From a virus (Duplodnaviria; Heunggongvirae; Uroviricota; Caudoviricetes): a DNA stretch of 17,432 nt. A model generated the notes under the pieces. It did not search any database. It saw nothing but the letters and a program-made list of their open reading frames with translations, and was not told where the DNA came from. The stretch is taken from positions 1 through 17,432 of the IMG/VR virus record IMGVR_UViG_2778261167_000008; one strand, given 5' to 3'. This document shows positions 999 through 7,819 of the stretch, in pieces. A program made the translations under genes and the position numbers. Every line of letters starts with the position of its first letter. The first letter of the stretch is position 1.

Positions 999-1367
999 AT
1001 GGGCATTAAAGTGCGTGGCGTTAAGCAGTCGAAAGCCGGGCTAAATCGCATCATTAACGACGTGAAAGGGCGCAAGGTTGTAAGGGCGTTACAGTCCGCA
1101 ATGATAATCGGCAGCTCACAGGCCGCACTTTATACGCCGATCGACACTTCGACATTGCTCAATAGCCAGTATCGGGAGTTGATAAACAACGGAGTTCGGC
1201 TGACAGGGCGTGTGGGGTACACGGCGAACTACGCTGTTTTCGTTCACGATCCTAACATTCCGCAAACCTTCCGTCGCGCCACCGCGCAGAAAGAGTTCCT
1301 CACTAAAGGCTTTGAAGACACCCGCAGCCAAATTGATGCCGTGATGCGCAAGGAGCTTTCAGTATGA
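999..1367 (+). CDS. Tail completion / neck protein, HK97 gp10-like (positional equivalent of lambda Z)
   Basis: 122-aa ORF starting 2 nt after the upstream stop, with an SD-like GGGAG upstream. N-terminal MGIKVRGVKQ...L pattern recalls the HK97 gp10 family; this is from memory and needs HMM confirmation. Confidence 0.5.
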   Translation: MGIKVRGVKQSKAGLNRIINDVKGRKVVRALQSAMIIGSSQAALYTPIDTSTLLNSQYRELINNGVRLTGRVGYTANYAVFVHDPNIPQTFRRATAQKEFLTKGFEDTRSQIDAVMRKELSV

Positions 1368-1747
1368 CACCTGCCATGTATGAGCGCGTGCGTAACTATT
1401 TCGTTGATGCCGGGCTTACCACTGGCTTCATTGTTCAGTTGCTGGCGTGGGACGACACAACGAAGTTAACCGACGCATTCATCGTGTTCAGACCTAACGG
1501 TGGTACCGACATCAGAAATGACCTCGGATCTGACCACTACGTTCTGGTGGATGTCATTTCCGCCAAGGATAAGCGCCGCGCAGCCGCTGAGAAGGCTCAG
1601 GAAATTATCAATTATGTCGAACAGAACGATATTACCGACGAATGCCTTGGCCTGATTCAAAACCTCGGCAATATGCCTGCACCTATCCTGACCGAAGAGG
1701 GCCGCCTGGTCTTTCGGCTCCAGTTCATGTGCGTTTACGGCGAATAA
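1364..1747 (+). CDS. Tail terminator-like protein (positional equivalent of lambda U)
   Basis: 127-aa ORF whose ATG (1364) overlaps the upstream TGA (1365-1367), indicating translational coupling. It sits immediately before the major tail gene; function is from position. Confidence 0.5.
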   Translation: MTPAMYERVRNYFVDAGLTTGFIVQLLAWDDTTKLTDAFIVFRPNGGTDIRNDLGSDHYVLVDVISAKDKRRAAAEKAQEIINYVEQNDITDECLGLIQNLGNMPAPILTEEGRLVFRLQFMCVYGE

Positions 1748-1765
1748 CCCCATCACTAACCCATC

Positions 1766-1793
1766 GGGCTGCCATCCGGCGGCCTTTTTTATT
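1766..1793 (+). terminator. Rho-independent terminator or attenuator between the U-like and major tail genes
   Basis: Hairpin GGCTGCC-ATCC-GGCGGCC (one G-U pair) followed by TTTTTTATTT; a strong SD (GAGAGG) and ATG follow immediately at 1806. Confidence 0.55.
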
Positions 1794-1805
1794 TGAGAGG
1801 TACAC

Positions 1806-2561
1806 ATGCAAGGCTGTGCTAATGATTTTGGCAAGCTGATCGGGAAAGTAGCTGTGCTACGCATGGCCTTTGGCTGCCCCGACGCAGTGCCAGCGCTTTC
1901 CGAGTGGAAGCGTCTCGGCGCTATGACGACCAAGGGCATCGACTATTCGATGAACACTATCAACTCCGAGGCAGATGATGCTAAAGGGCTAGTGGAGAAC
2001 CTGGTCAACAACATGGATCTGACGATCTCCGGTGAAGGGGAGTTTCGTAAATCTGATAAAGATAACGAGATCGGAGCATGGCGTCTGTCGAAGTACATCT
2101 TTGATGAAGTCCAGGCTGGTCGTCAGCCTAACCTGTGGGTACGTTTCGACTTTGCTGGAGAGAACGCTGGCACTTACATCCTGGGCTACATGAACACCAC
2201 GTCATGGTCTGGTGACTTCGGTACCAACGATATCTCTACCTTCTCCGGCGAGTGGAAGGTCTACGACGCCGACACCGTTGTGTTTGAGGTCGCTGACTCT
2301 ATCGCGGCCACTGGTGTAGAGGTTACCCCTGCAACTGCATCTTTGGTCGTTGGCGCAACCCAGCAACTGAGCGGCGCAGTTCAGCCAACCGATGCGACTA
2401 ACAAGGCGATCACCTGGACGACTTCGGCGGCATCTATCGCAACCGTCAGTTCAACCGGTCTGGTAACGGCCGTAGCCGCCGGAACCGCGACCATTACGGC
2501 AACAACCGCAGATGGTGACTTCACCGATACCTGCGCTGTTACCGTGACAGCCGCACCGTAA
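1806..2561 (+). CDS. Major tail protein with C-terminal bacterial Ig-like (Big_2) domain (lambda V-like)
   Basis: 251-aa ORF with SD GAGAGG 5 nt upstream. The C-terminal ~85 aa (VEVTPATASLVVGATQQLSGAVQPTDATNKAITWTTSAASIATVSSTGLVTAVAAGTATITATTADGDFTDTCAVTVT) matches the Big_2 signature; lambda gpV has the same architecture and size. Confidence 0.75.
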   Translation: MQGCANDFGKLIGKVAVLRMAFGCPDAVPALSEWKRLGAMTTKGIDYSMNTINSEADDAKGLVENLVNNMDLTISGEGEFRKSDKDNEIGAWRLSKYIFDEVQAGRQPNLWVRFDFAGENAGTYILGYMNTTSWSGDFGTNDISTFSGEWKVYDADTVVFEVADSIAATGVEVTPATASLVVGATQQLSGAVQPTDATNKAITWTTSAASIATVSSTGLVTAVAAGTATITATTADGDFTDTCAVTVTAAP

Positions 2562-2611
2562 TCACTACAAAGGGCGGCGTGCTGCCCTTGATACTGGTTA
2601 TGGAGAACGAT

Positions 2612-3355
2612 ATGACACCTTTGAAAGAGATTGGCGAGTGCCTGATTGGTTCTGGAAGCCGTGAATACTTCTTCCGCCCATCATTCCGTAACATGACGCG
2701 GATCGGCGAACCAGAGCATATCGTTCGCACTTTCTATGCGCTGTTCAATGACGATGTGGCAAAGATGCTTGAGGCGGCGCGAGAAATTCACAGTGCGTTA
2801 CCAGAGCATCAGCGCATATTTTACGCCTACTATTTCGGTGACGTTTCGCTGCCGCGCTGGGCACTTGATGCAGCAGGTTCTGCTGCGTTTGTGCGTGAGG
2901 CATTGCTTTCAGCTATTAACGTCATTCAGTCATGCTGTGACGAGGACGTTTCTGAACTGACAGGCTGGCACGAGCCATCACGTACTGGAAGGCGTGCATT
3001 TGTATGGCGCCGCGGCTTGCTCCCGCCTGAGAACCTTATTCTGATAGCTCAGTCACTGATCATGCATGGCATCATCGGCAGGGCAAAGGTTCGTAAGTTG
3101 CAGAAGCACGAAAGCAAGGAAACGACTCCTGAGTTTCATGCGACTGAATACATCATGGCAGCCCGCAATCACTTCGGTATCAGCAAGGAAGAGGCTATGG
3201 AACTCACTATGACCGAATTTGCGATGATGCTTAACGCCAAATACCCTGATCAGAAAGGCTTCACCAGGGAAGAGTACGACGCTGTTATGGACGATGACGA
3301 TCGCCGCTGGCAGGAAATGATTGAGCGCGAAAAATCAGCAAAGAAAGCCGCCTGA
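2612..3355 (+). CDS. Tail assembly chaperone (G/GT-like), apparently one continuous ORF
   Basis: Position between the major tail and tape measure genes; acidic C-terminus. SD GGAG at 2602-2605 supports ATG 2612 (the track's GTG 2579 and ATG 2600 are in-frame alternatives). No second overlapping frame was seen. Confidence 0.5.
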   Translation: MTPLKEIGECLIGSGSREYFFRPSFRNMTRIGEPEHIVRTFYALFNDDVAKMLEAAREIHSALPEHQRIFYAYYFGDVSLPRWALDAAGSAAFVREALLSAINVIQSCCDEDVSELTGWHEPSRTGRRAFVWRRGLLPPENLILIAQSLIMHGIIGRAKVRKLQKHESKETTPEFHATEYIMAARNHFGISKEEAMELTMTEFAMMLNAKYPDQKGFTREEYDAVMDDDDRRWQEMIEREKSAKKAA

Positions 3356-3427
3356 GTTAATAATGGATGTACCGTAATCGCCTGACCGGGCTTAATATGG
3401 CTCAACAATAAAACTCAGGTGATAAGG

Positions 3428-3802
3428 GTGAAGAAAATACTTTTGGCTTTGGTGATTCCACTGGTTCTGGCTGGCTGTAAGCCTGGCGAGGAAAAGGCCA
3501 TATCTCTGGCGAAATCTGAGGTTGCTGCAAATCTTAAAGACCCGGCCAGCGCACAGTTCCGGAACGTAAAAGTATCAAAGATGACTGATGCCGAAGATGG
3601 TCATGTCGTCGCTGTTGTCTGTGGAGAAATCAACGGTAAGAACGGTTTCGGTGCATATGCAGGGTTTCATCCATTCTTCGTTGAGCTGAACATGAAATCG
3701 ACAGGGATCTTCTCTAAAGGCGTCGATTATACGCTTGGAAAGCATTTCCTTAGCTCGAAAGATACGCCGCCGCCTCAGGCATACAAAGACCGATTCCAAT
3801 AG
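3428..3802 (+). CDS. Small secreted lipoprotein (cargo gene; function unknown)
   Basis: Starting at GTG 3428 gives MKKILLALVIPLVLAGC: a charged n-region, hydrophobic core and lipobox L-A-G-C, with K at +2 arguing against inner-membrane retention. SD AGGTGA at 3416-3421; GTG 3419 is an alternative start. GC is lower than the flanking tail genes and the gene has its own terminator. Confidence 0.7.
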   Translation: MKKILLALVIPLVLAGCKPGEEKAISLAKSEVAANLKDPASAQFRNVKVSKMTDAEDGHVVAVVCGEINGKNGFGAYAGFHPFFVELNMKSTGIFSKGVDYTLGKHFLSSKDTPPPQAYKDRFQ

Positions 3803-3818
3803 TCGACACGAATAACTA

Positions 3819-3843
3819 ACCCACCGCAAAGTGGGTTTTTTTA
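3819..3843 (+). terminator. Rho-independent terminator after the lipoprotein gene
   Basis: Hairpin ACCCAC-CGCAAA-GTGGGT followed by TTTTTTT, 17 nt after the TAG stop. Confidence 0.65.
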
Positions 3844-3856
3844 TGCCCGGAGAAAA

Positions 3857-6193
3857 GTGATGTCAGAGAAAGCAGGCGAGATTTATTACGACATCGAGGC
3901 CGATGTTTCTGGCTTGCTGAAGGCGCAGGGGAAGGCCAATAAGTCACTCGACTCAATCGGAAACTCTGCCGCCAACGCAGCCAAAAAGATGGACGAGCTG
4001 CAGACCAATATCAATCGCGTGGCTGGTGCTATTGCAGCATCTCTCGTTGTTGACTGGGGCAAGGCGTTTCTGGTTGCCGCTGACAACATGAGTCAGCTTA
4101 ACGCGCGCATTGAACGCCTGACAGGCAGCGCTGCGGCTGCATCACAGACGATGCAGAGCCTGATGCGTATCAGTTCGTCGACTGGCGGTTCGCTGCAGGA
4201 CACCACAAAGCTGTGGGAAACCCTCAGCACTGCTCTCCGCGATACCGGCGCAACGAACGGCCAGATTATTCAGCTCACCGAGACGCTTCAGAAAATCGGG
4301 CGCATCGGCGGATCCTCATCCGAAGAAATGGCTAATGCTCTTCGTCAGTTCGGCCAGTCAATTTCATCCGGAACTGTCAGGGCGGAGGAATTCAACTCCA
4401 TCCTTGAGCAGATGCCGGAACTGGCGCGCCAGATCGCCGCCGGTATGGGAGTCAGCATCGGAGAGTTGCGCCAGCTCATGCTGGACGGAAAGTTGACGGC
4501 AGAAGATGCGCTCAACGCTATCCAGAAGCAGACCGGATCAGTCAACGCTGAGTTCGAAAAGCTACCACGTACGCTTTCTCAGGCCAATACAGCGCTGACA
4601 AACTCATTCCTGTCGATGATCGACTCTGTTAACCAGGCGACTGGTGCCAGTAGTGGTCTGGTGGCAATAATCGACTCTATGTCAGCAGCACTAGATCGCC
4701 TGGTAGGAAAGGCGGCGTCGGCAGATGCTCAGATATCAGATTTGAACAGCACAGCGGAAATGTTCACCAGGCGCGCGCGCACTTGGTCATGGCTTGGGCT
4801 TGATGGTTGGGAAGCACAAAACAAAGCGCTTGCCGGTCTAAGCAATAAGGCCGCCTTGCTGGTTGGCGATCTGGCTGCTGTTTCCAAAGCATCACAGACC
4901 GCGGCTAACACAAAGCCGATTGAGATTAAAACTACAGGTTCCGCTACTGGAAGCAAAGCGAAGGGCGGAAAGTCAGCAGCTCAGAAAGAAGCTGAGCAGT
5001 ACGCTAAAGCGCAGGAGACGGTTAACCAAAAACTGGATGAGCTGAGGCAAAAGGCCGAGTTGTCAGCGGGCAGTGTTGGTGAGTTATCGAGAGCTCAGGC
5101 CGTGCTTAATGCACAGCAGTCTCTCGGTAATGATGCGACACAGGAACAGGTCATTCTGGCTGGGCAATACGCGGCTAAAGCCTGGGATAACGCCAACGCA
5201 TTGCGCGCCCAGGCAAAGGCAGAAAAGGAACGTACTGACGCTGCCAATAAATTCAGCGCTATCCAGGGTAAAACCAGTAAAACTGCCGGACTGGATAGCC
5301 AGTATCAGAAAGACATCGCGGATATCCAACAATACGCCCAACTTTACCCGCAGAAGATCGGAGAGGCTGAGGCGGCGCGCGCTGCTATCGAACAGCAATA
5401 CCGTGATCAGCGTAACGCGGCAATGTGGGAAGAATGGGCGCAGCAGAACGCGGCCACACAGGCAGCGGCTGCGGCTTTCGATTCACTAGGTTCGGTTGCC
5501 AGTAACGCGCTGACAGGAATCATCACAGGTAGCATGTCTGCCAGCGACGCAATGCGCAGTATAGGCATGACGGTCCTGAACAGCGTTGTTAATTCGTTCG
5601 TCCAGATGGGTATCGAGTGGGTTAAGTCTGCAATTATGGGACAGGCGGCACAAACGGCTGCTATTGGCACGGTGACAGCAGTGCAGACGGCAGCAGTGGC
5701 AACACAGACTGCTACCAGCACAGCGGCGGCGGCAACGACTGCGGCAGCTTGGACCCCGGCGGCGATCCTTTCTTCAATAGCCTCGATGGGTACTGCGGCG
5801 GCGATCGGTCTCGGCGCGGTGGCTGGCGTTATTGGAGCTAATCTGCTCGGCAAGCGCAAGAATGGCGGCCCGGTGAGTGCAGGTGGGATGTATCAGGTCG
5901 GCGAAGGAGGCATGCCTGAAATTTACCAGGCCAGTACCGGTAAGCAGTACATGATACCGGGCGACAACGGCAAGGTGATCAGCAACAAGGATATGACAGC
6001 AGGGGGTAGTGGCGGGGTGGTTATCAACATCCAGAACTACACGTCATCGTCCGTCGATGCTCAGGCTGGTACAGATGCAAACGGCGGGCTTACCGTTGAT
6101 GTCATCGTTGCTGACCTGAACAACGGCGGCCCAATCAGTAGCGCTATTACCAGCAACATGAACGTTAAACGCACGCCAAGAGGGCAGGGCTGA
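3857..6193 (+). CDS. Tail tape measure protein
   Basis: 778-aa ORF with a helical, Ala/Gln-rich N-terminal two-thirds and a hydrophobic Ala/Gly/Thr-rich segment near the C-terminus (AAQTAAIGTVTAVQTAAVATQTATSTAAAATTAAAW...GLGAVAGVIGANLLG). SD GGAG at 3849-3852; ATG 3860 may be the true start. About 0.15 nm per residue implies a tail near 115 nm. Confidence 0.85.
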   Translation: MMSEKAGEIYYDIEADVSGLLKAQGKANKSLDSIGNSAANAAKKMDELQTNINRVAGAIAASLVVDWGKAFLVAADNMSQLNARIERLTGSAAAASQTMQSLMRISSSTGGSLQDTTKLWETLSTALRDTGATNGQIIQLTETLQKIGRIGGSSSEEMANALRQFGQSISSGTVRAEEFNSILEQMPELARQIAAGMGVSIGELRQLMLDGKLTAEDALNAIQKQTGSVNAEFEKLPRTLSQANTALTNSFLSMIDSVNQATGASSGLVAIIDSMSAALDRLVGKAASADAQISDLNSTAEMFTRRARTWSWLGLDGWEAQNKALAGLSNKAALLVGDLAAVSKASQTAANTKPIEIKTTGSATGSKAKGGKSAAQKEAEQYAKAQETVNQKLDELRQKAELSAGSVGELSRAQAVLNAQQSLGNDATQEQVILAGQYAAKAWDNANALRAQAKAEKERTDAANKFSAIQGKTSKTAGLDSQYQKDIADIQQYAQLYPQKIGEAEAARAAIEQQYRDQRNAAMWEEWAQQNAATQAAAAAFDSLGSVASNALTGIITGSMSASDAMRSIGMTVLNSVVNSFVQMGIEWVKSAIMGQAAQTAAIGTVTAVQTAAVATQTATSTAAAATTAAAWTPAAILSSIASMGTAAAIGLGAVAGVIGANLLGKRKNGGPVSAGGMYQVGEGGMPEIYQASTGKQYMIPGDNGKVISNKDMTAGGSGGVVINIQNYTSSSVDAQAGTDANGGLTVDVIVADLNNGGPISSAITSNMNVKRTPRGQG

Positions 6194-6690
6194 TGCCAAT
6201 TATCGACTATCCCGACTGGCTGCCACTGGCGCAGAAGGCCAGCAAAAACATGACGCTCGATACCGGGTTCCAGACCGATCAGCCAGCGGTCGGCCCGGCT
6301 ATCTTCCAGAACCTTACTGACGACCTGAAAGTGACCTGGTCACTGACATGGATCTTCACGCTGGACCAGGAGCGCGCTTTCCAGCAGTGGCTGCGCAGCC
6401 CGAACTATCTCAACAGGGGCCTGAACTGGTTCCGTATGAATGTCAACCTTGGCGGCAGTGGCCTGCAGTTGCAGGAGCTTCATTTCACACAGATGCCGGT
6501 GCAAACCAGTATCGACGGCGGGGTGGTGACCTGGACTGGGACCGTTATCGCGAACCACCTCTACAACTCCGATGACGAGTTTGATGACGTTATTGTTGAA
6601 CTGCCGCCGCCTTGGGATTCGTGGCTTGATATCGTGGTGACGGGTTATCCGGACGGGCGCGATCCGGAAAGTCTGCCTCGCGTTGTTTGA
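6193..6690 (+). CDS. Minor tail protein (lambda M-like, distal tail)
   Basis: 165-aa ORF whose ATG overlaps the tape measure TGA (ATGA coupling); position directly after the tape measure. Similarity to gpM is a weak pattern match from memory. Confidence 0.5.
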   Translation: MPIIDYPDWLPLAQKASKNMTLDTGFQTDQPAVGPAIFQNLTDDLKVTWSLTWIFTLDQERAFQQWLRSPNYLNRGLNWFRMNVNLGGSGLQLQELHFTQMPVQTSIDGGVVTWTGTVIANHLYNSDDEFDDVIVELPPPWDSWLDIVVTGYPDGRDPESLPRVV

Positions 6691-6704
6691 TTTTCATCCA
6701 TAAG

Positions 6705-6720
6705 TTGCAAATGGTATAAT
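6705..6720 (+). promoter_or_regulatory. Candidate promoter with extended -10 element (TGgTATAAT) upstream of the HNH gene
   Basis: TG at 6712-6713 and TATAAT at 6715-6720. The adjacent TTGCAA (6705-6710) is too close to be a -35; extended -10 promoters can work without one. About 90 nt of hairpin-prone leader follows. Confidence 0.4.
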
Positions 6721-6809
6721 TAATAAGCGCCTAGGGTAGCTCCCGAAAAGGCGGAACGTAGACCGCTCTGGCGCAACCATCCATCTACGAAACCTTCTAC
6801 GAGGTTTAT

Positions 6810-7349
6810 ATGAACTTTATTACTCCTCAATATCTTTCTGAGTGTTTTGTCTATAACAAAAATACAGGGGAGCTATTCTGGAAAGCTCGACCTATTCACC
6901 ATTTCAACAGCTTAAAAGGTCAGCAAACTTTCAATGGGCAGTTTGCCGGGAAAAAAGCTGGAAGAGCAAATAATCGCGGTTATTTCAGAATTGCTATTAG
7001 TGGCAAGGAGATTCTAAACCACAGAATAGTTATAGCCTTGGAGACAGGCGTGATGCCTACTGACGAAGTGGATCATATCAATGGGATCAGAACCGACAAT
7101 AGGTACGAAAATTTAAGAGTGGTCTCGCGGCAGACAAATGCCAAAAACATGAAATTAAATATCAATAATACCAGCGGGATATCTGGCGTATCTTGGAATA
7201 CAAGAAAATCAAAATGGAAATCAGTAATCTGGATGAATTGTGTTGAAAAGCATCTTGGGTACTTCGATTCCATTATTGACGCCTTCAATGCCAGGGTAAT
7301 AGCAGAGGTAAACATGGGTTACCATAAAAATCATGGAAGGATCCCCTGA
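6810..7349 (+). CDS. HNH homing-type endonuclease with AP2-like DNA-binding region
   Basis: 179-aa ORF, markedly AT-rich against GC-rich flanks, with SD GAGG 5 nt upstream. Contains HNH core EVDHINGIRTDNRYENLRVVSRQTNAKN and a downstream GISGVSWNTRKSKWKSVIW segment typical of phage HNH-AP2 endonucleases. Confidence 0.8.
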   Translation: MNFITPQYLSECFVYNKNTGELFWKARPIHHFNSLKGQQTFNGQFAGKKAGRANNRGYFRIAISGKEILNHRIVIALETGVMPTDEVDHINGIRTDNRYENLRVVSRQTNAKNMKLNINNTSGISGVSWNTRKSKWKSVIWMNCVEKHLGYFDSIIDAFNARVIAEVNMGYHKNHGRIP

Positions 7350-7819
7350 TGCCATCGTTCCGTCAATATAAGCAGCAGCGCCCGACGCGAGGGCTATACG
7401 ACACCATCACGTTCTACCATCCATCCTTTGGCTATGTGCGCCTTGTCGATAAGCAGTTCTTCCCTAAGACGCTCGGCGGCCAGTCCTACACGCCAGCGCG
7501 CTTTGAAATCGAAGAGAGCCAACAGAGCGGCACGCCGGTGATCGACGCGACCGTGAAGCTTGGGCGGCTGTCGTCGGACATCAAGGCGCTGATGAAACAG
7601 TGGAAGGGGGCCGCCAGACTGACGGCCATCACGGCAACACGGCAAATCTTCGACAGCGGTGATATGTCGGTACCGATAAAGTCTTGGGAGTTGTACGTCA
7701 AGACGATAGATATAGACGCTGATGCCGCTTCTGTGACGCTTTCTGTCACTAACCCGCTGAACAACAACATAGGCCGACTTTATGATCCGCAGGAATACAC
7801 CGGGCTGCAGTACCTCTGA
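7349..7819 (+). CDS. Minor tail protein (lambda L-like N-terminal domain)
   Basis: 156-aa ORF whose ATG overlaps the HNH TGA; SD GGAAGG at 7335-7340. Position and a loose resemblance to the gpL N-terminus; the Cys-rich C-terminal domain of lambda L is absent. Confidence 0.5.
   Translation: MPSFRQYKQQRPTRGLYDTITFYHPSFGYVRLVDKQFFPKTLGGQSYTPARFEIEESQQSGTPVIDATVKLGRLSSDIKALMKQWKGAARLTAITATRQIFDSGDMSVPIKSWELYVKTIDIDADAASVTLSVTNPLNNNIGRLYDPQEYTGLQYL

What the first reader, a model, noticed from the sequence alone, without database searches (positions are those of the whole stretch)
3356..3843. Lipoprotein cargo gene inserted between tail assembly chaperone and tape measure
Seen in sequence: a ~124-aa protein with a canonical lipoprotein signal and lipobox (LAGC), its own SD and terminator, and lower GC than the flanking genes, sits at a junction that is normally tightly packed. 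Established knowledge: small phage lipoproteins such as Cor (phi80/N15/HK022) and Llp (T5) exclude superinfecting phages by blocking outer-membrane receptors. Inference: this is a candidate exclusion or host-interaction factor; I do not recognise the mature sequence.
Basis: partly seen in the sequence, partly recalled or inferred. Interest (0 to 1): 0.55.

Follow-up and report, generated by a model that had tools for sequence, protein, structure and literature searches.

The report
Prophage lipoprotein cargo gene before tape-measure gene
A small exported lipoprotein gene is an optional add-on wedged into the tail genes of an E. coli-type prophage, at the same spot as the first phage add-on gene ever described; it belongs to a very large, unstudied protein family and probably guards the cell envelope against other phages, which is untested.

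Summary
A GTG-started 124-aa ORF (3428-3802) has a canonical lipobox (LAGC, Cys17), a Shine-Dalgarno site, somewhat lower GC, and a hairpin plus T-run before the tape-measure gene.

It is cargo, not a tail part. Among 94 related loci the slot holds this lipoprotein in 71, nothing in 13, and one of two unrelated-looking envelope proteins in 10. A near-isogenic empty site bounds a 448-bp cassette (about 3364-3811).

The "own terminator" is wrong. The hairpin occurs in every slot state, including empty ones, so it belongs to the phage backbone. No convincing promoter of its own was found.

The mature protein is not related to Cor, Llp or HK97 gp15; only signal peptides align. It belongs to a huge family with no Pfam model (13,882 clusters) and an invariant DPxSAxFR...CGExNGKNxxGxYxGF motif. 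The predicted fold is cystatin/NTF2-like.

Relatives sit at cargo sites in other temperate phages. In at least six phage backbones they lie directly upstream of the tape-measure gene. Their membrane anchors differ, so the shared location is the periplasm.

The most likely role is exclusion of incoming phages at the periplasmic entry step. This is inferred, not shown. The window's allele lacks a conserved C-terminal cysteine (C123F).

The parts
2612..3355 (+). Upstream backbone gene, DUF6246/phrog_791. It sits in the tail-assembly-chaperone position between the major tail protein and the tape-measure gene. Its function is not established.
   Evidence: Pfam DUF6246 E 1.6e-71. phrog_791 E 3e-88, unknown function. 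Relatives are annotated as 247 aa. No informative PDB relative.
3364..3811 (+). The 448-bp cargo (moron) cassette: a 64-nt leader, the lipoprotein CDS and about 9 trailing nt. It is bounded by AATAA microhomology, so each boundary is uncertain by 1 nt.
   Evidence: Near-isogenic empty sites L091/L092 read ...gccgccTGAgatAATAAataactaaccc..., against the filled ...TGAgttAATAA|tggatg...cgacacg|AATAActaaccc. Slot length is 501 nt filled and 53 nt empty.
3417..3422 (+). Shine-Dalgarno site AGGTGA, 5 nt before the GTG start.
   Evidence: Read from the sequence. It is conserved as AGGGGA in relatives.
3428..3802 (+). Lipoprotein CDS, 124 aa. The signal peptide is codons 1-16, the lipobox LAGC is at 3467-3478, and the acylated Cys17 is at 3476-3478. 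The mature 107-aa domain carries the family motif.
   Evidence: LPAM_1. (phrog_2320, E 7.7e-33). (13 invariant residues). (AF2 model, pLDDT 79.9). (dN/dS 0.07).
3794..3796 (+). Codon 123, TTC (Phe). Relatives have TGC (Cys), the presumed disulfide partner of the invariant C65.
   Evidence: C-termini among 70 orthologous loci: ERCQ 61, DRCQ 4, DRFQ 5. The DRFQ group is only the window lineage.
3818..3842 (+). Backbone hairpin plus T-run (terminator-like), lying between the slot and the tape-measure gene. It is not part of the cargo cassette.
   Evidence: Present in all 94 loci and in all four slot states. Folding energy is -9.6 to -14.6 kcal/mol. Loops vary freely. The stem keeps pairing through A-T, G-T and G-C exchanges.
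3860..6193 (+). Tape-measure protein gene. GGAG at 3849-3852 is its ribosome-binding site.
   Evidence: Pfam TMP_3 E 5.9e-58. phrog_1538 E 1e-194. Relatives are annotated as 777 aa.

Best explanation
The finding is a 448-bp moron (cargo) cassette in the tail operon of a siphovirus-type Enterobacterales prophage. It sits between the chaperone-position gene (DUF6246) and the tape-measure gene, in a slot closed on the right by a backbone hairpin terminator.

Predicted pathway: its one gene makes a Sec-exported, lipid-modified protein. [quoted passage not shown] There it would display a compact 107-aa cystatin/NTF2-like domain in the periplasm.

Most likely function (inferred): the domain binds a conserved periplasmic feature and blocks the periplasmic stage of infection by incoming phages. 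That stage is cell-wall crossing or formation of the DNA channel by the tape-measure protein and tail tip. This would be superinfection exclusion that works more like HK97 gp15, T4 Sp or TP-J34 Ltp than like the receptor blockers Cor and Llp.

Status of each step:
- Shown: cargo status, slot polymorphism, cassette boundaries, purifying selection, family membership, no homology to Cor, Llp or gp15.
- Predicted: export, lipidation, membrane sorting, fold.
- Inferred: the exclusion function and its target.
For: Cargo status:
- The slot survey of 94 loci with DUF6246 at 90% identity or more gave lipoprotein 71, empty 13, alternative secreted protein 8, and alternative membrane-anchored protein 2.
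- E. coli genomes show the same states with intact neighbouring genes.
- Every cargo found in the slot is envelope-directed.

Same family at cargo sites in unrelated temperate phages:
- Between ogr and int, or at the prophage end, in P2-like phages.
- Between tail genes K and I in Fraca.
- Next to an S24 repressor in Caulobacter.
- Directly upstream of the tape-measure gene in at least 6 tape-measure clusters from Klebsiella, Pseudomonas, Rhizorhabdus and metagenomic phages. Twelve of 54 distinct loci have a Pfam-confirmed tape-measure gene next door, and three more are likely by size.

Precedent: this same junction holds HK97 gp15, an envelope protein that excludes phages at DNA entry (PMC3594210).

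A maintained, functional gene: dN/dS 0.07.

A periplasmic, conserved target:
- Anchors vary among relatives: a lipobox followed by CKP, a lipobox followed by CGKS, a transmembrane helix, or a plain signal peptide.
- Thirteen residues are invariant across Proteobacteria.
- The family spans 13,882 clusters.
- Some members are fused to PG_binding_1, PG_binding_3 or SPOR domains.
- Slot state shows no link to the type of the J tail protein.
Against: - There is no functional datum for any member of the family.
- No hit in the defence-system library PADLOC, NCBIfam or the PDB by sequence.
- No convincing sigma-70 promoter lies in the leader, and the leader is no more conserved than synonymous sites. 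Expression from the repressed prophage is therefore unproven. The gene may be transcribed only with the late tail genes.
- Adjacency to the tape-measure gene may only reflect a general insertion hotspot.
- The window allele lacks the conserved C-terminal Cys (C123F) and may be impaired.
- The survey sampled only close relatives of the window's DUF6246, so the 76% occupancy is biased upward.
Confidence: 0.45

Rival explanations
1. Cor/Llp-type receptor blocker. The outer-membrane lipoprotein binds the periplasmic face of the specific outer-membrane receptor used by this phage and its competitors, and inactivates it.
For: It is a small lipoprotein predicted to go to the outer membrane, it is cargo in a tail operon, and it has a conserved Cys pair like Llp's essential disulfide (bioRxiv 10.64898/2026.03.26.714494). 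Llp and Cor show that this strategy exists.
Against: Only the signal peptide aligns to Cor (19 columns) and to Llp (18 columns). The mature part is 107 aa against about 61, and its single-sheet cystatin/NTF2-like model differs from Llp's two-sheet fold; Llp does not appear among the listed PDB hits. The binding motif is invariant in bacteria whose outer-membrane receptors have nothing in common. Relatives are anchored to the inner membrane or are soluble. Phages with the same J C-terminus occur with and without the gene.
Confidence: 0.12
2. Host-fitness (lysogenic conversion) factor unrelated to phage exclusion. Examples would be a periplasmic inhibitor or binder that protects the cell wall against lysozymes, peptidoglycan hydrolases or proteases, or a Bor-like envelope resistance protein.
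For: The fold class includes protease and hydrolase-regulating modules (cystatins, latexin, PepSY-type YpeB/YpmB). Some members are fused to peptidoglycan-binding domains. The family is huge and mostly found in ordinary bacterial contigs. The same prophage carries two O-antigen-type acyltransferases, which are classic conversion genes.
Against: There is no sequence match to Ivy, MliC/PliC or any other Pfam family. Fold similarity is generic, with under 16% identity. Every context inspected here was a prophage or phage.
Confidence: 0.2
3. Late-expressed lytic-cycle accessory. It would be transcribed only with the tail operon and would act at or after lysis, for example by keeping progeny from being wasted on lysed-cell debris or on sister lysogens (the 'anti-Kronos' effect), or by modulating lysis.
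For: No promoter of its own was detected. The gene lies inside the late operon, upstream of a hairpin that antiterminated late transcription would read through. It has been retained as long as its neighbours (dS 0.62 against 0.54-0.78) and under equal constraint. A few relatives lie beside holin or endolysin genes. The concept is documented for Llp and for prophage exclusion proteins (bioRxiv 10.1101/2024.03.05.583538).
Against: Relatives sit next to the repressor or at prophage ends after ogr, which are typical lysogen-expressed positions. This rival overlaps with the exclusion model rather than replacing it.
Confidence: 0.15
4. Essential or structural tail or tail-assembly component, for example part of the chaperone system.
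For: It lies between the chaperone-position gene and the tape-measure gene, it is present in 76% of sampled relatives, and it is under strong purifying selection. One source labelled a relative 'predicted phage tail protein'.
Against: Thirteen relatives have nothing there and ten have a different gene, with intact tail genes on both sides. A lipoprotein signal sends the protein out of the cytoplasm, where tails assemble. Homologues occur at non-tail sites.
Confidence: 0.03

Closest known systems
HK97 gp15 moron (Juhala et al. 2000; Cumby et al. 2012; summarised in PMC3594210)
   Same: It sits at exactly the same junction: tail assembly chaperone, then the moron, then the tape-measure gene. It is present in HK97 and absent in HK022. 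It is a small envelope-targeted protein and is followed by a terminator. It acts as a superinfection exclusion protein at DNA entry that depends on the incoming tail.
   Different: There is no sequence relation (hhalign probability 0.3%). gp15 is a 62-aa inner-membrane YebO-like protein, not a lipoprotein. Here the terminator belongs to the backbone and remains in empty slots, whereas HK022 has only 19 nt between its chaperone gene and tape-measure gene.
Cor (phi80/N15/HK022/T1) and Llp (T5) exclusion lipoproteins
   Same: They are small phage-encoded lipoproteins with a lipobox, predicted to reach the inner leaflet of the outer membrane, and they have a conserved cysteine pair. They are cargo-like genes in or near tail modules.
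   Different: The mature sequences are unrelated. The size is 107 aa against about 61. The fold is a single 4-stranded sheet plus helix of the cystatin/NTF2-like type, against Llp's two small sheets (bioRxiv 10.64898/2026.03.26.714494). No receptor link could be shown. The family-wide anchor variety argues against an outer-membrane-only target.
TP-J34 Ltp (Streptococcus thermophilus prophage lipoprotein; PMC3952083, Bebeacua et al. 2013 cited there)
   Same: It is a prophage lipoprotein that excludes superinfecting phages after adsorption. Its reported target is the incoming tape-measure protein.
   Different: It comes from a Gram-positive host, has helix-turn-helix-like repeat domains, and lies in the lysogeny module. 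No homology was tested or expected.
T4 Sp (Spackle), a periplasmic inhibitor of the tail lysozyme gp5 (own knowledge; mentioned in bioRxiv 10.64898/2026.03.26.714494)
   Same: It is a small exported phage protein that acts in the periplasm on the penetration machinery of incoming phages. This is the kind of conserved periplasmic target suggested here.
   Different: It is all-helical, soluble, and comes from a virulent phage. No sequence or fold relation was seen in any search.
phrog_2320 and the unnamed 'DPxSAxFR...CGExNGKNxxGxYxGF' family
   Same: The protein is a full member. It matches at E 7.7e-33 and carries all 13 invariant residues.
   Different: The family has no described function and no Pfam, NCBIfam or PDB entry. 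The window allele lacks the C-terminal Cys.

Membership tests
Bacterial lipoprotein (Lgt/LspA substrate) | Positive N-region, hydrophobic core, lipobox [LVI][ASTVI][GAS]C | tested here: met
   The precursor begins MKK-ILLALVIPLV-LAGC. Pfam LPAM_1 scores 23.5 bits against a cut-off of 20. The lipobox is conserved in orthologues and in most distant relatives.
Bacterial lipoprotein (Lgt/LspA substrate) | Actual acylation and outer-membrane sorting (no Asp at +2) | not testable with these tools
   Residue +2 is Lys and +3 is Pro, which predicts outer-membrane sorting by the E. coli +2 rule (established knowledge). Confirmation needs globomycin or palmitate labelling and membrane fractionation.
Moron (Juhala/Hendrix definition) | Extra gene between neighbours that are adjacent in related phages | tested here: met
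   Thirteen of 94 related loci have a 33-53-nt junction. Near-isogenic empty sites define a 448-bp insert.
Moron (Juhala/Hendrix definition) | Base composition differs from the flanks | tested here: met
   GC is 47.7% against 51.2% and 55.5%. GC3 is 48.8% against 55.2% and 58.7%. The difference is modest.
Moron (Juhala/Hendrix definition) | Own promoter and own terminator | tested here: not met
   The terminator is backbone, since it is present in empty slots. No sigma-70 consensus site lies in the leader, and the leader shows no extra conservation. A weak backbone site (TTGGCA-17-AAAAAT) lies inside the 3' end of DUF6246 in relatives. The promoter question is therefore inconclusive.
Cor/Llp exclusion lipoproteins | Sequence or profile homology of the mature protein | tested here: not met
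   hhalign of the 47-sequence family profile against HK022 Cor and T5 Llp aligns only the signal-peptide columns, 19 and 18 respectively.
Cor/Llp exclusion lipoproteins | Llp-type fold: about 60 aa, a short helix plus four strands in two sheets, and an N-to-C disulfide | tested here: not met
   The AF2 model has one helix, a 4-stranded antiparallel sheet and a C-terminal helix over 107 aa. The best PDB matches are VirB8/TraM/DotI-type domains, cystatins and NTF2-like proteins, and Llp is not among the listed hits. A Cys65 to C-terminal Cys pair exists in relatives but not in the window allele.
Cor/Llp exclusion lipoproteins | Blocks the receptor used by the carrier phage (FhuA); gene linked to the receptor-binding protein | tested here: inconclusive
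   Slot state does not track the C-terminal type of the J tail protein. The main J cluster contains lipoprotein, empty and both alternative states. Receptor binding itself cannot be tested here.
HK97 gp15/YebO-like exclusion proteins | Sequence homology to gp15 | tested here: not met
   hhalign probability is 0.3%.
HK97 gp15/YebO-like exclusion proteins | [quoted passage not shown] | tested here: met
   The chaperone identity of DUF6246 rests on position only.
phrog_2320 / DPxSAxFR...CGExNGKN family (unnamed) | Profile match and invariant residues D38 P39 S41 F44 R45 C65 G66 N69 N72 G75 Y77 G79 F80 | tested here: met
   phrog_2320 matches at E 7.7e-33 and all 13 residues are present. A profile search finds 13,882 clusters at E 1e-3 or better.
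phrog_2320 / DPxSAxFR...CGExNGKN family (unnamed) | C-terminal cysteine, presumed partner of C65 | tested here: not met
   The window has Phe123 (TTC). Sixty-five of 70 orthologous loci have Cys.
Phage tail structural or assembly protein | Present in all phages that share the tail module; cytoplasmic | tested here: not met
   It is absent or replaced in 23 of 94 loci, and it carries an export and lipidation signal.
Known anti-phage defence systems (PADLOC) | Match to a defence-protein model | tested here: not met
   No PADLOC hit at E 1 or better.
Periplasmic lysozyme inhibitors (Ivy, MliC/PliC, PliI/PliG) | Pfam or profile match | tested here: not met
   Pfam gives no hit other than LPAM_1 for the protein. 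The other 46 family members scanned add only peptidoglycan-binding domains.

The most novel reading that the evidence does not exclude
The family could be a widespread, still unnamed periplasmic module that blocks envelope penetration by incoming siphophage tails. It would do so by binding the tape-measure/tail-tip channel or its cell-wall-degrading activity. Its repeated placement directly upstream of tape-measure genes in at least six unrelated phage backbones would then reflect functional coupling with the resident tape-measure protein, for example telling self from non-self, and not merely a shared insertion hotspot.
Probability: 0.12. Interest if true: 0.8.

Novelty: new variant of a known kind. 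Interest (0 to 1): 0.45.

Why it matters
Cargo genes in phage tail operons are a proven source of exclusion and conversion functions, such as HK97 gp15, Cor and the phage FimU proteins.

This one gives a precise genetic handle on a protein family that is very large (about 14,000 clusters at 50% identity), carried by prophages in many Proteobacteria, and absent from Pfam, NCBIfam, the PDB and the defence catalogue searched here (PADLOC).

The slot offers natural controls for experiments: filled, empty, two alternative cargoes, and a Cys-to-Phe allele.

If the family proves to block phage entry in the periplasm through a conserved target, it would add a common and overlooked exclusion mechanism. 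That would matter for phage host-range prediction and for phage therapy against Enterobacterales and Pseudomonas.

Tried and rejected
- Near-identity DNA search of cultured phage genomes found nothing. The element is known only as a prophage.
- Sequence searches of NCBIfam, PADLOC and the PDB gave only signal-peptide-level or chance hits.
- Foldseek against the PDB gave nothing at E below 1e-3. The top BPI/SPLUNC hits had TM scores under 0.4 and were rejected.
- I tested whether cargo state tracks the receptor-binding C-terminus of the J tail protein. It does not.
- I looked for a promoter of its own using the consensus scan and leader conservation. Neither was convincing.
- I tried to show that the alternative 119-aa cargo has the same fold. 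The hints are weak: phrog_2320 at E 0.005; hhalign probability 64%; and shared F44, C65, a G-[KR]-x-N-x-G loop and a C-terminal Cys. Its AF2 model was useless at pLDDT 40, so homology stays unproven.
- DUF6246 could not be confirmed as a chaperone. The PDB hits were chance and one literature mention was irrelevant.
- Tsao et al. 2018 on Pseudomonas morons is not in the library.
- I considered an Rz1-type spanin and rejected it. The gene is not in a lysis cassette, is not embedded in an Rz gene, and is not proline-rich.

Full report
**1. What is in the sequence**

The window is the tail module of a siphovirus-type prophage. In order it carries:
- a Neck1-like gene (999-1367);
- a tail terminator (1364-1747);
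- an Ig-domain major tail protein (1806-2561);
- DUF6246/phrog_791 (2612-3355);
- the ORF in question;
- a TMP_3-type tape-measure gene (3860-6193);
- minor tail proteins, an NlpC/P60 protein, a J-like protein and a tailspike.

The ORF starts at GTG 3428. AGGTGA lies 5 nt upstream, and in relatives the alternative GTG at 3419 reads GGG. It encodes 124 aa beginning MKKILLALVIPLVLAGC|KPGEE. Pfam's lipid-attachment model scores above its cut-off (23.5 against 20 bits).

A hairpin at 3818-3837 with a run of seven T precedes the tape-measure ribosome-binding site. The CDS has 47.7% GC, against 51.2% and 55.5% for its neighbours.

The exact protein is on record for E. coli. Near-identical proteins occur in Citrobacter, Salmonella and Enterobacter.

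**2. It is cargo, not a tail part**

Complete E. coli genomes with 87-90% identical flanks show three states of this junction:
- an orthologous lipoprotein (EC21Z-063, M37H);
- a different AT-rich 119-aa protein with an ordinary signal peptide (O22:H8 strain 154);
- nothing at all (CUPF06).

I then surveyed 94 loci whose DUF6246 is at least 90% identical to the window's:

| Slot content | Loci |
|---|---|
| This lipoprotein | 71 |
| Empty (33, 51 or 53 nt) | 13 |
| 119-aa secreted protein | 8 |
| 97-aa protein with an N-terminal membrane helix | 2 |

All three cargo types are envelope-directed. The sample is biased toward the window's close relatives, so 76% is an upper estimate of occupancy.

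Two near-isogenic empty sites (L091, L092) fix the cassette. The empty form reads ...TGAgatAATAAataactaaccc. The filled form reads ...TGAgttAATAA|tggatg...cgacacg|AATAActaaccc. This is a 448-bp insert, window 3364-3811, bounded by AATAA microhomology.

The gene is old and maintained in this lineage. dN/dS is 0.07 at dS 0.62, comparable to DUF6246 (0.044 at dS 0.54) and the first 900 nt of the tape-measure gene (0.089 at dS 0.78).

**3. The terminator is the backbone's**

The hairpin plus T-run is present in all 94 loci and in all four slot states. In empty slots it follows the DUF6246 stop codon almost directly. Loops vary freely, while the stem keeps pairing through A-T, G-T and G-C exchanges. 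Folding energies range from -9.6 to -14.6 kcal/mol.

The cassette has only about 9 nt after its stop codon, so it has no terminator of its own.

No sigma-70 consensus promoter was found in the 64-nt leader. The leader is no better conserved than synonymous sites.

A weak promoter-like site (TTGGCA-17-AAAAAT) lies inside the 3' end of DUF6246 in relatives. The window has CTGGCA there, which falls below the scan threshold. Because the site is in conserved coding sequence, it cannot be judged.

How the gene is transcribed, in the lysogen or only with the late operon, remains open.

**4. What the protein is**

It matches phrog_2320 (unknown function) at E 7.7e-33. It matches nothing else in Pfam, NCBIfam, PADLOC or the PDB by sequence.

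Homologues range from 98% identity in Enterobacterales to 35-50% in sphingomonads, Caulobacter and Pseudomonas. Thirteen residues are invariant in a 47-sequence alignment: D38, P39, S41, F44, R45, C65, G66, N69, N72, G75, Y77, G79 and F80.

A profile search of 1.84 billion representative proteins finds 13,882 clusters at E 1e-3 or better and 6,727 at 1e-10 or better. This is a very large family with no name.

Nearly all relatives end with a Cys that presumably pairs with the invariant C65. The window lineage alone has Phe there (TTC at 3794-3796; 5 of 70 loci).

**5.

Profile comparison with HK022 Cor and T5 Llp aligns only the signal peptides, 19 and 18 columns respectively.

The Llp structure paper describes Llp as a mature protein of about 61 aa with two small sheets and an essential N-to-C disulfide (bioRxiv 10.64898/2026.03.26.714494). 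The present model is larger and different.

HK97 gp15 is unrelated in sequence. It does, however, occupy exactly this junction and is absent from HK022. It was the first element called a moron, and it excludes phages at DNA entry (PMC3594210).

The location is therefore classical rather than surprising. T5 likewise has an endonuclease gene between its chaperone and tape-measure genes.

**6. Evidence from relatives elsewhere**

The same domain sits at recognised cargo positions in unrelated temperate phages:
- after ogr, next to int or at the prophage end, in P2-like phages of Salmonella and Klebsiella;
- between tail genes K and I in the HK97-like phage Fraca;
- beside an S24 repressor in a Caulobacter prophage;
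- beside holin or endolysin genes in a few loci.

It also lies repeatedly just upstream of a tape-measure gene. This occurs in Klebsiella phage ST16-OXA48phi5.1, in Pseudomonas prophages, in Rhizorhabdus wittichii RW1 and in several metagenomic phages.

Among 54 distinct loci that lack DUF6246, the next gene downstream is a Pfam-confirmed tape-measure gene in 12 and probably in 3 more. These fall into at least 6 tape-measure clusters sharing less than 40% identity. The placement is far more frequent than random, but it could simply mark a shared insertion hotspot. One Pseudomonas prophage has a 6-kb island of other cargo at the same junction.

Membrane anchors differ among relatives:
- a lipobox followed by CKP in the window, which predicts outer-membrane sorting by the +2 rule;
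- a lipobox followed by CGKS in Pseudomonas, which is the MexA-type inner-membrane retention signal (my own knowledge of Narita and Tokuda's work);
- a transmembrane helix in others;
- a plain signal peptide in the alternative cargo.

A few members are fused to PG_binding_1, PG_binding_3 or SPOR domains.

The common denominator is the periplasm, and the target must be conserved across very different bacteria. This argues against a specific outer-membrane receptor. In line with that, slot state does not track the C-terminal type of the J tail protein.

**7. Most likely mechanism, and its rivals**

Shown: an optional, long-maintained cargo cassette that encodes a predicted exported lipoprotein of a large uncharacterised family.

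Inferred (confidence about 0.45): it tethers a small binding domain in the periplasm that interferes with the periplasmic stage of infection by incoming phages. This is superinfection exclusion in the manner of HK97 gp15, T4 Sp or TP-J34 Ltp. Ltp is a lipoprotein whose reported target is the tape-measure protein (cited in PMC3952083).

Rivals:
- a Cor/Llp-type receptor blocker (0.12);
- a host-fitness factor acting on the cell wall or its hydrolases (0.2);
- a late-expressed accessory that protects progeny or modulates lysis (0.15; concept in bioRxiv 10.1101/2024.03.05.583538);
- an essential tail component (0.03, effectively refuted by the empty and replaced slots).

**8. Verdict**

The cargo interpretation is supported and sharpened. 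The attribution of the terminator and the Cor/Llp kinship are not supported. The exclusion function remains a reasonable but untested inference.

I rate it a new variant of a known kind: an envelope-protein moron at the HK97 gp15 site, built on an unstudied family. Interest is moderate (0.45). The repeated adjacency to the tape-measure gene and the family's size are the parts most worth following up.

Noticed in passing
window 6810-7349 (+): An HNH endonuclease gene (Pfam HNH_3 E 1e-13; phrog_99) with 39% GC sits between two tail genes (6193-6690 and 7349-7819). Those two genes abut directly in the related E. coli prophage L002 (12863-13360 and 13360-13830). This is a second, independent insertion in the same tail operon, probably a homing endonuclease.
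   Followed up: partly
window 3794-3796: The window's lipoprotein allele has Phe123 where 65 of 70 orthologous loci, and most distant relatives, have a Cys that is the likely disulfide partner of the invariant C65. The exact allele is nevertheless common, being listed in 121 index blocks. It may be a weakened or altered-function variant.
   Followed up: partly
L003 3942-4301; L020 4829-5122 (same slot in related prophages): Two alternative cargoes occupy the identical slot. One is a 119-aa AT-rich secreted protein. It may be a very diverged relative of the lipoprotein, given phrog_2320 at E 0.005 and shared F44, C65, a G-[KR]-x-N-x-G loop and a C-terminal Cys. The other is a 97-aa protein with an N-terminal membrane helix, no database match, and a candidate promoter of its own (TTAATA-17-TAGAAT).
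   Followed up: partly
window 10720-15852: A low-GC block (30-39%) holds a tailspike (Tail_spike_N), two Acyl_transf_3 genes (12769-13908 on the + strand, 14689-15852 on the - strand) and a truncated tail-fibre-assembly gene (14111-14383, matching only positions 50-131 of Caudo_TAP). It looks like a swapped host-range and O-antigen-modification module that left a remnant of an older tail-fibre system.
   Followed up: no
L104 and L105 (Pseudomonas prophages), about 1300-7000: [quoted passage not shown] The family lipoprotein is the last gene before the tape-measure gene. This junction appears to be a general cargo and defence hotspot in siphophages.
   Followed up: no
window 1766-1785, 3818-3837, 8236-8255, 10682-10703: Several strong GC-rich hairpins followed by T-runs lie within or between tail genes. 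The scan found 28 terminator-like sites against 16.1 +/- 4.3 expected. Terminators inside a late operon suggest that antitermination is needed for tail gene expression.
   Followed up: no
L006 4938-5738 (Escherichia phage Cyrano, 108 kb) and phage PhiR41_1: In these large phages the domain forms the N-terminal part of a 266-aa 'putative membrane lipoprotein'. The gene is transcribed divergently from a transcriptional regulator. This is a different architecture from the single-domain prophage versions.
   Followed up: no
Gordonia phages (for example Easley, Dolores, Clark; about 9.2-10.4 kb, - strand): tblastn with the Pseudomonas family member finds 44%-identical stretches in 21 actinobacteriophage genomes. 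BFVD's top structural match is 'Lipoprotein [Gordonia phage Sidious]'. The domain therefore seems to extend beyond Proteobacteria.
   Followed up: no
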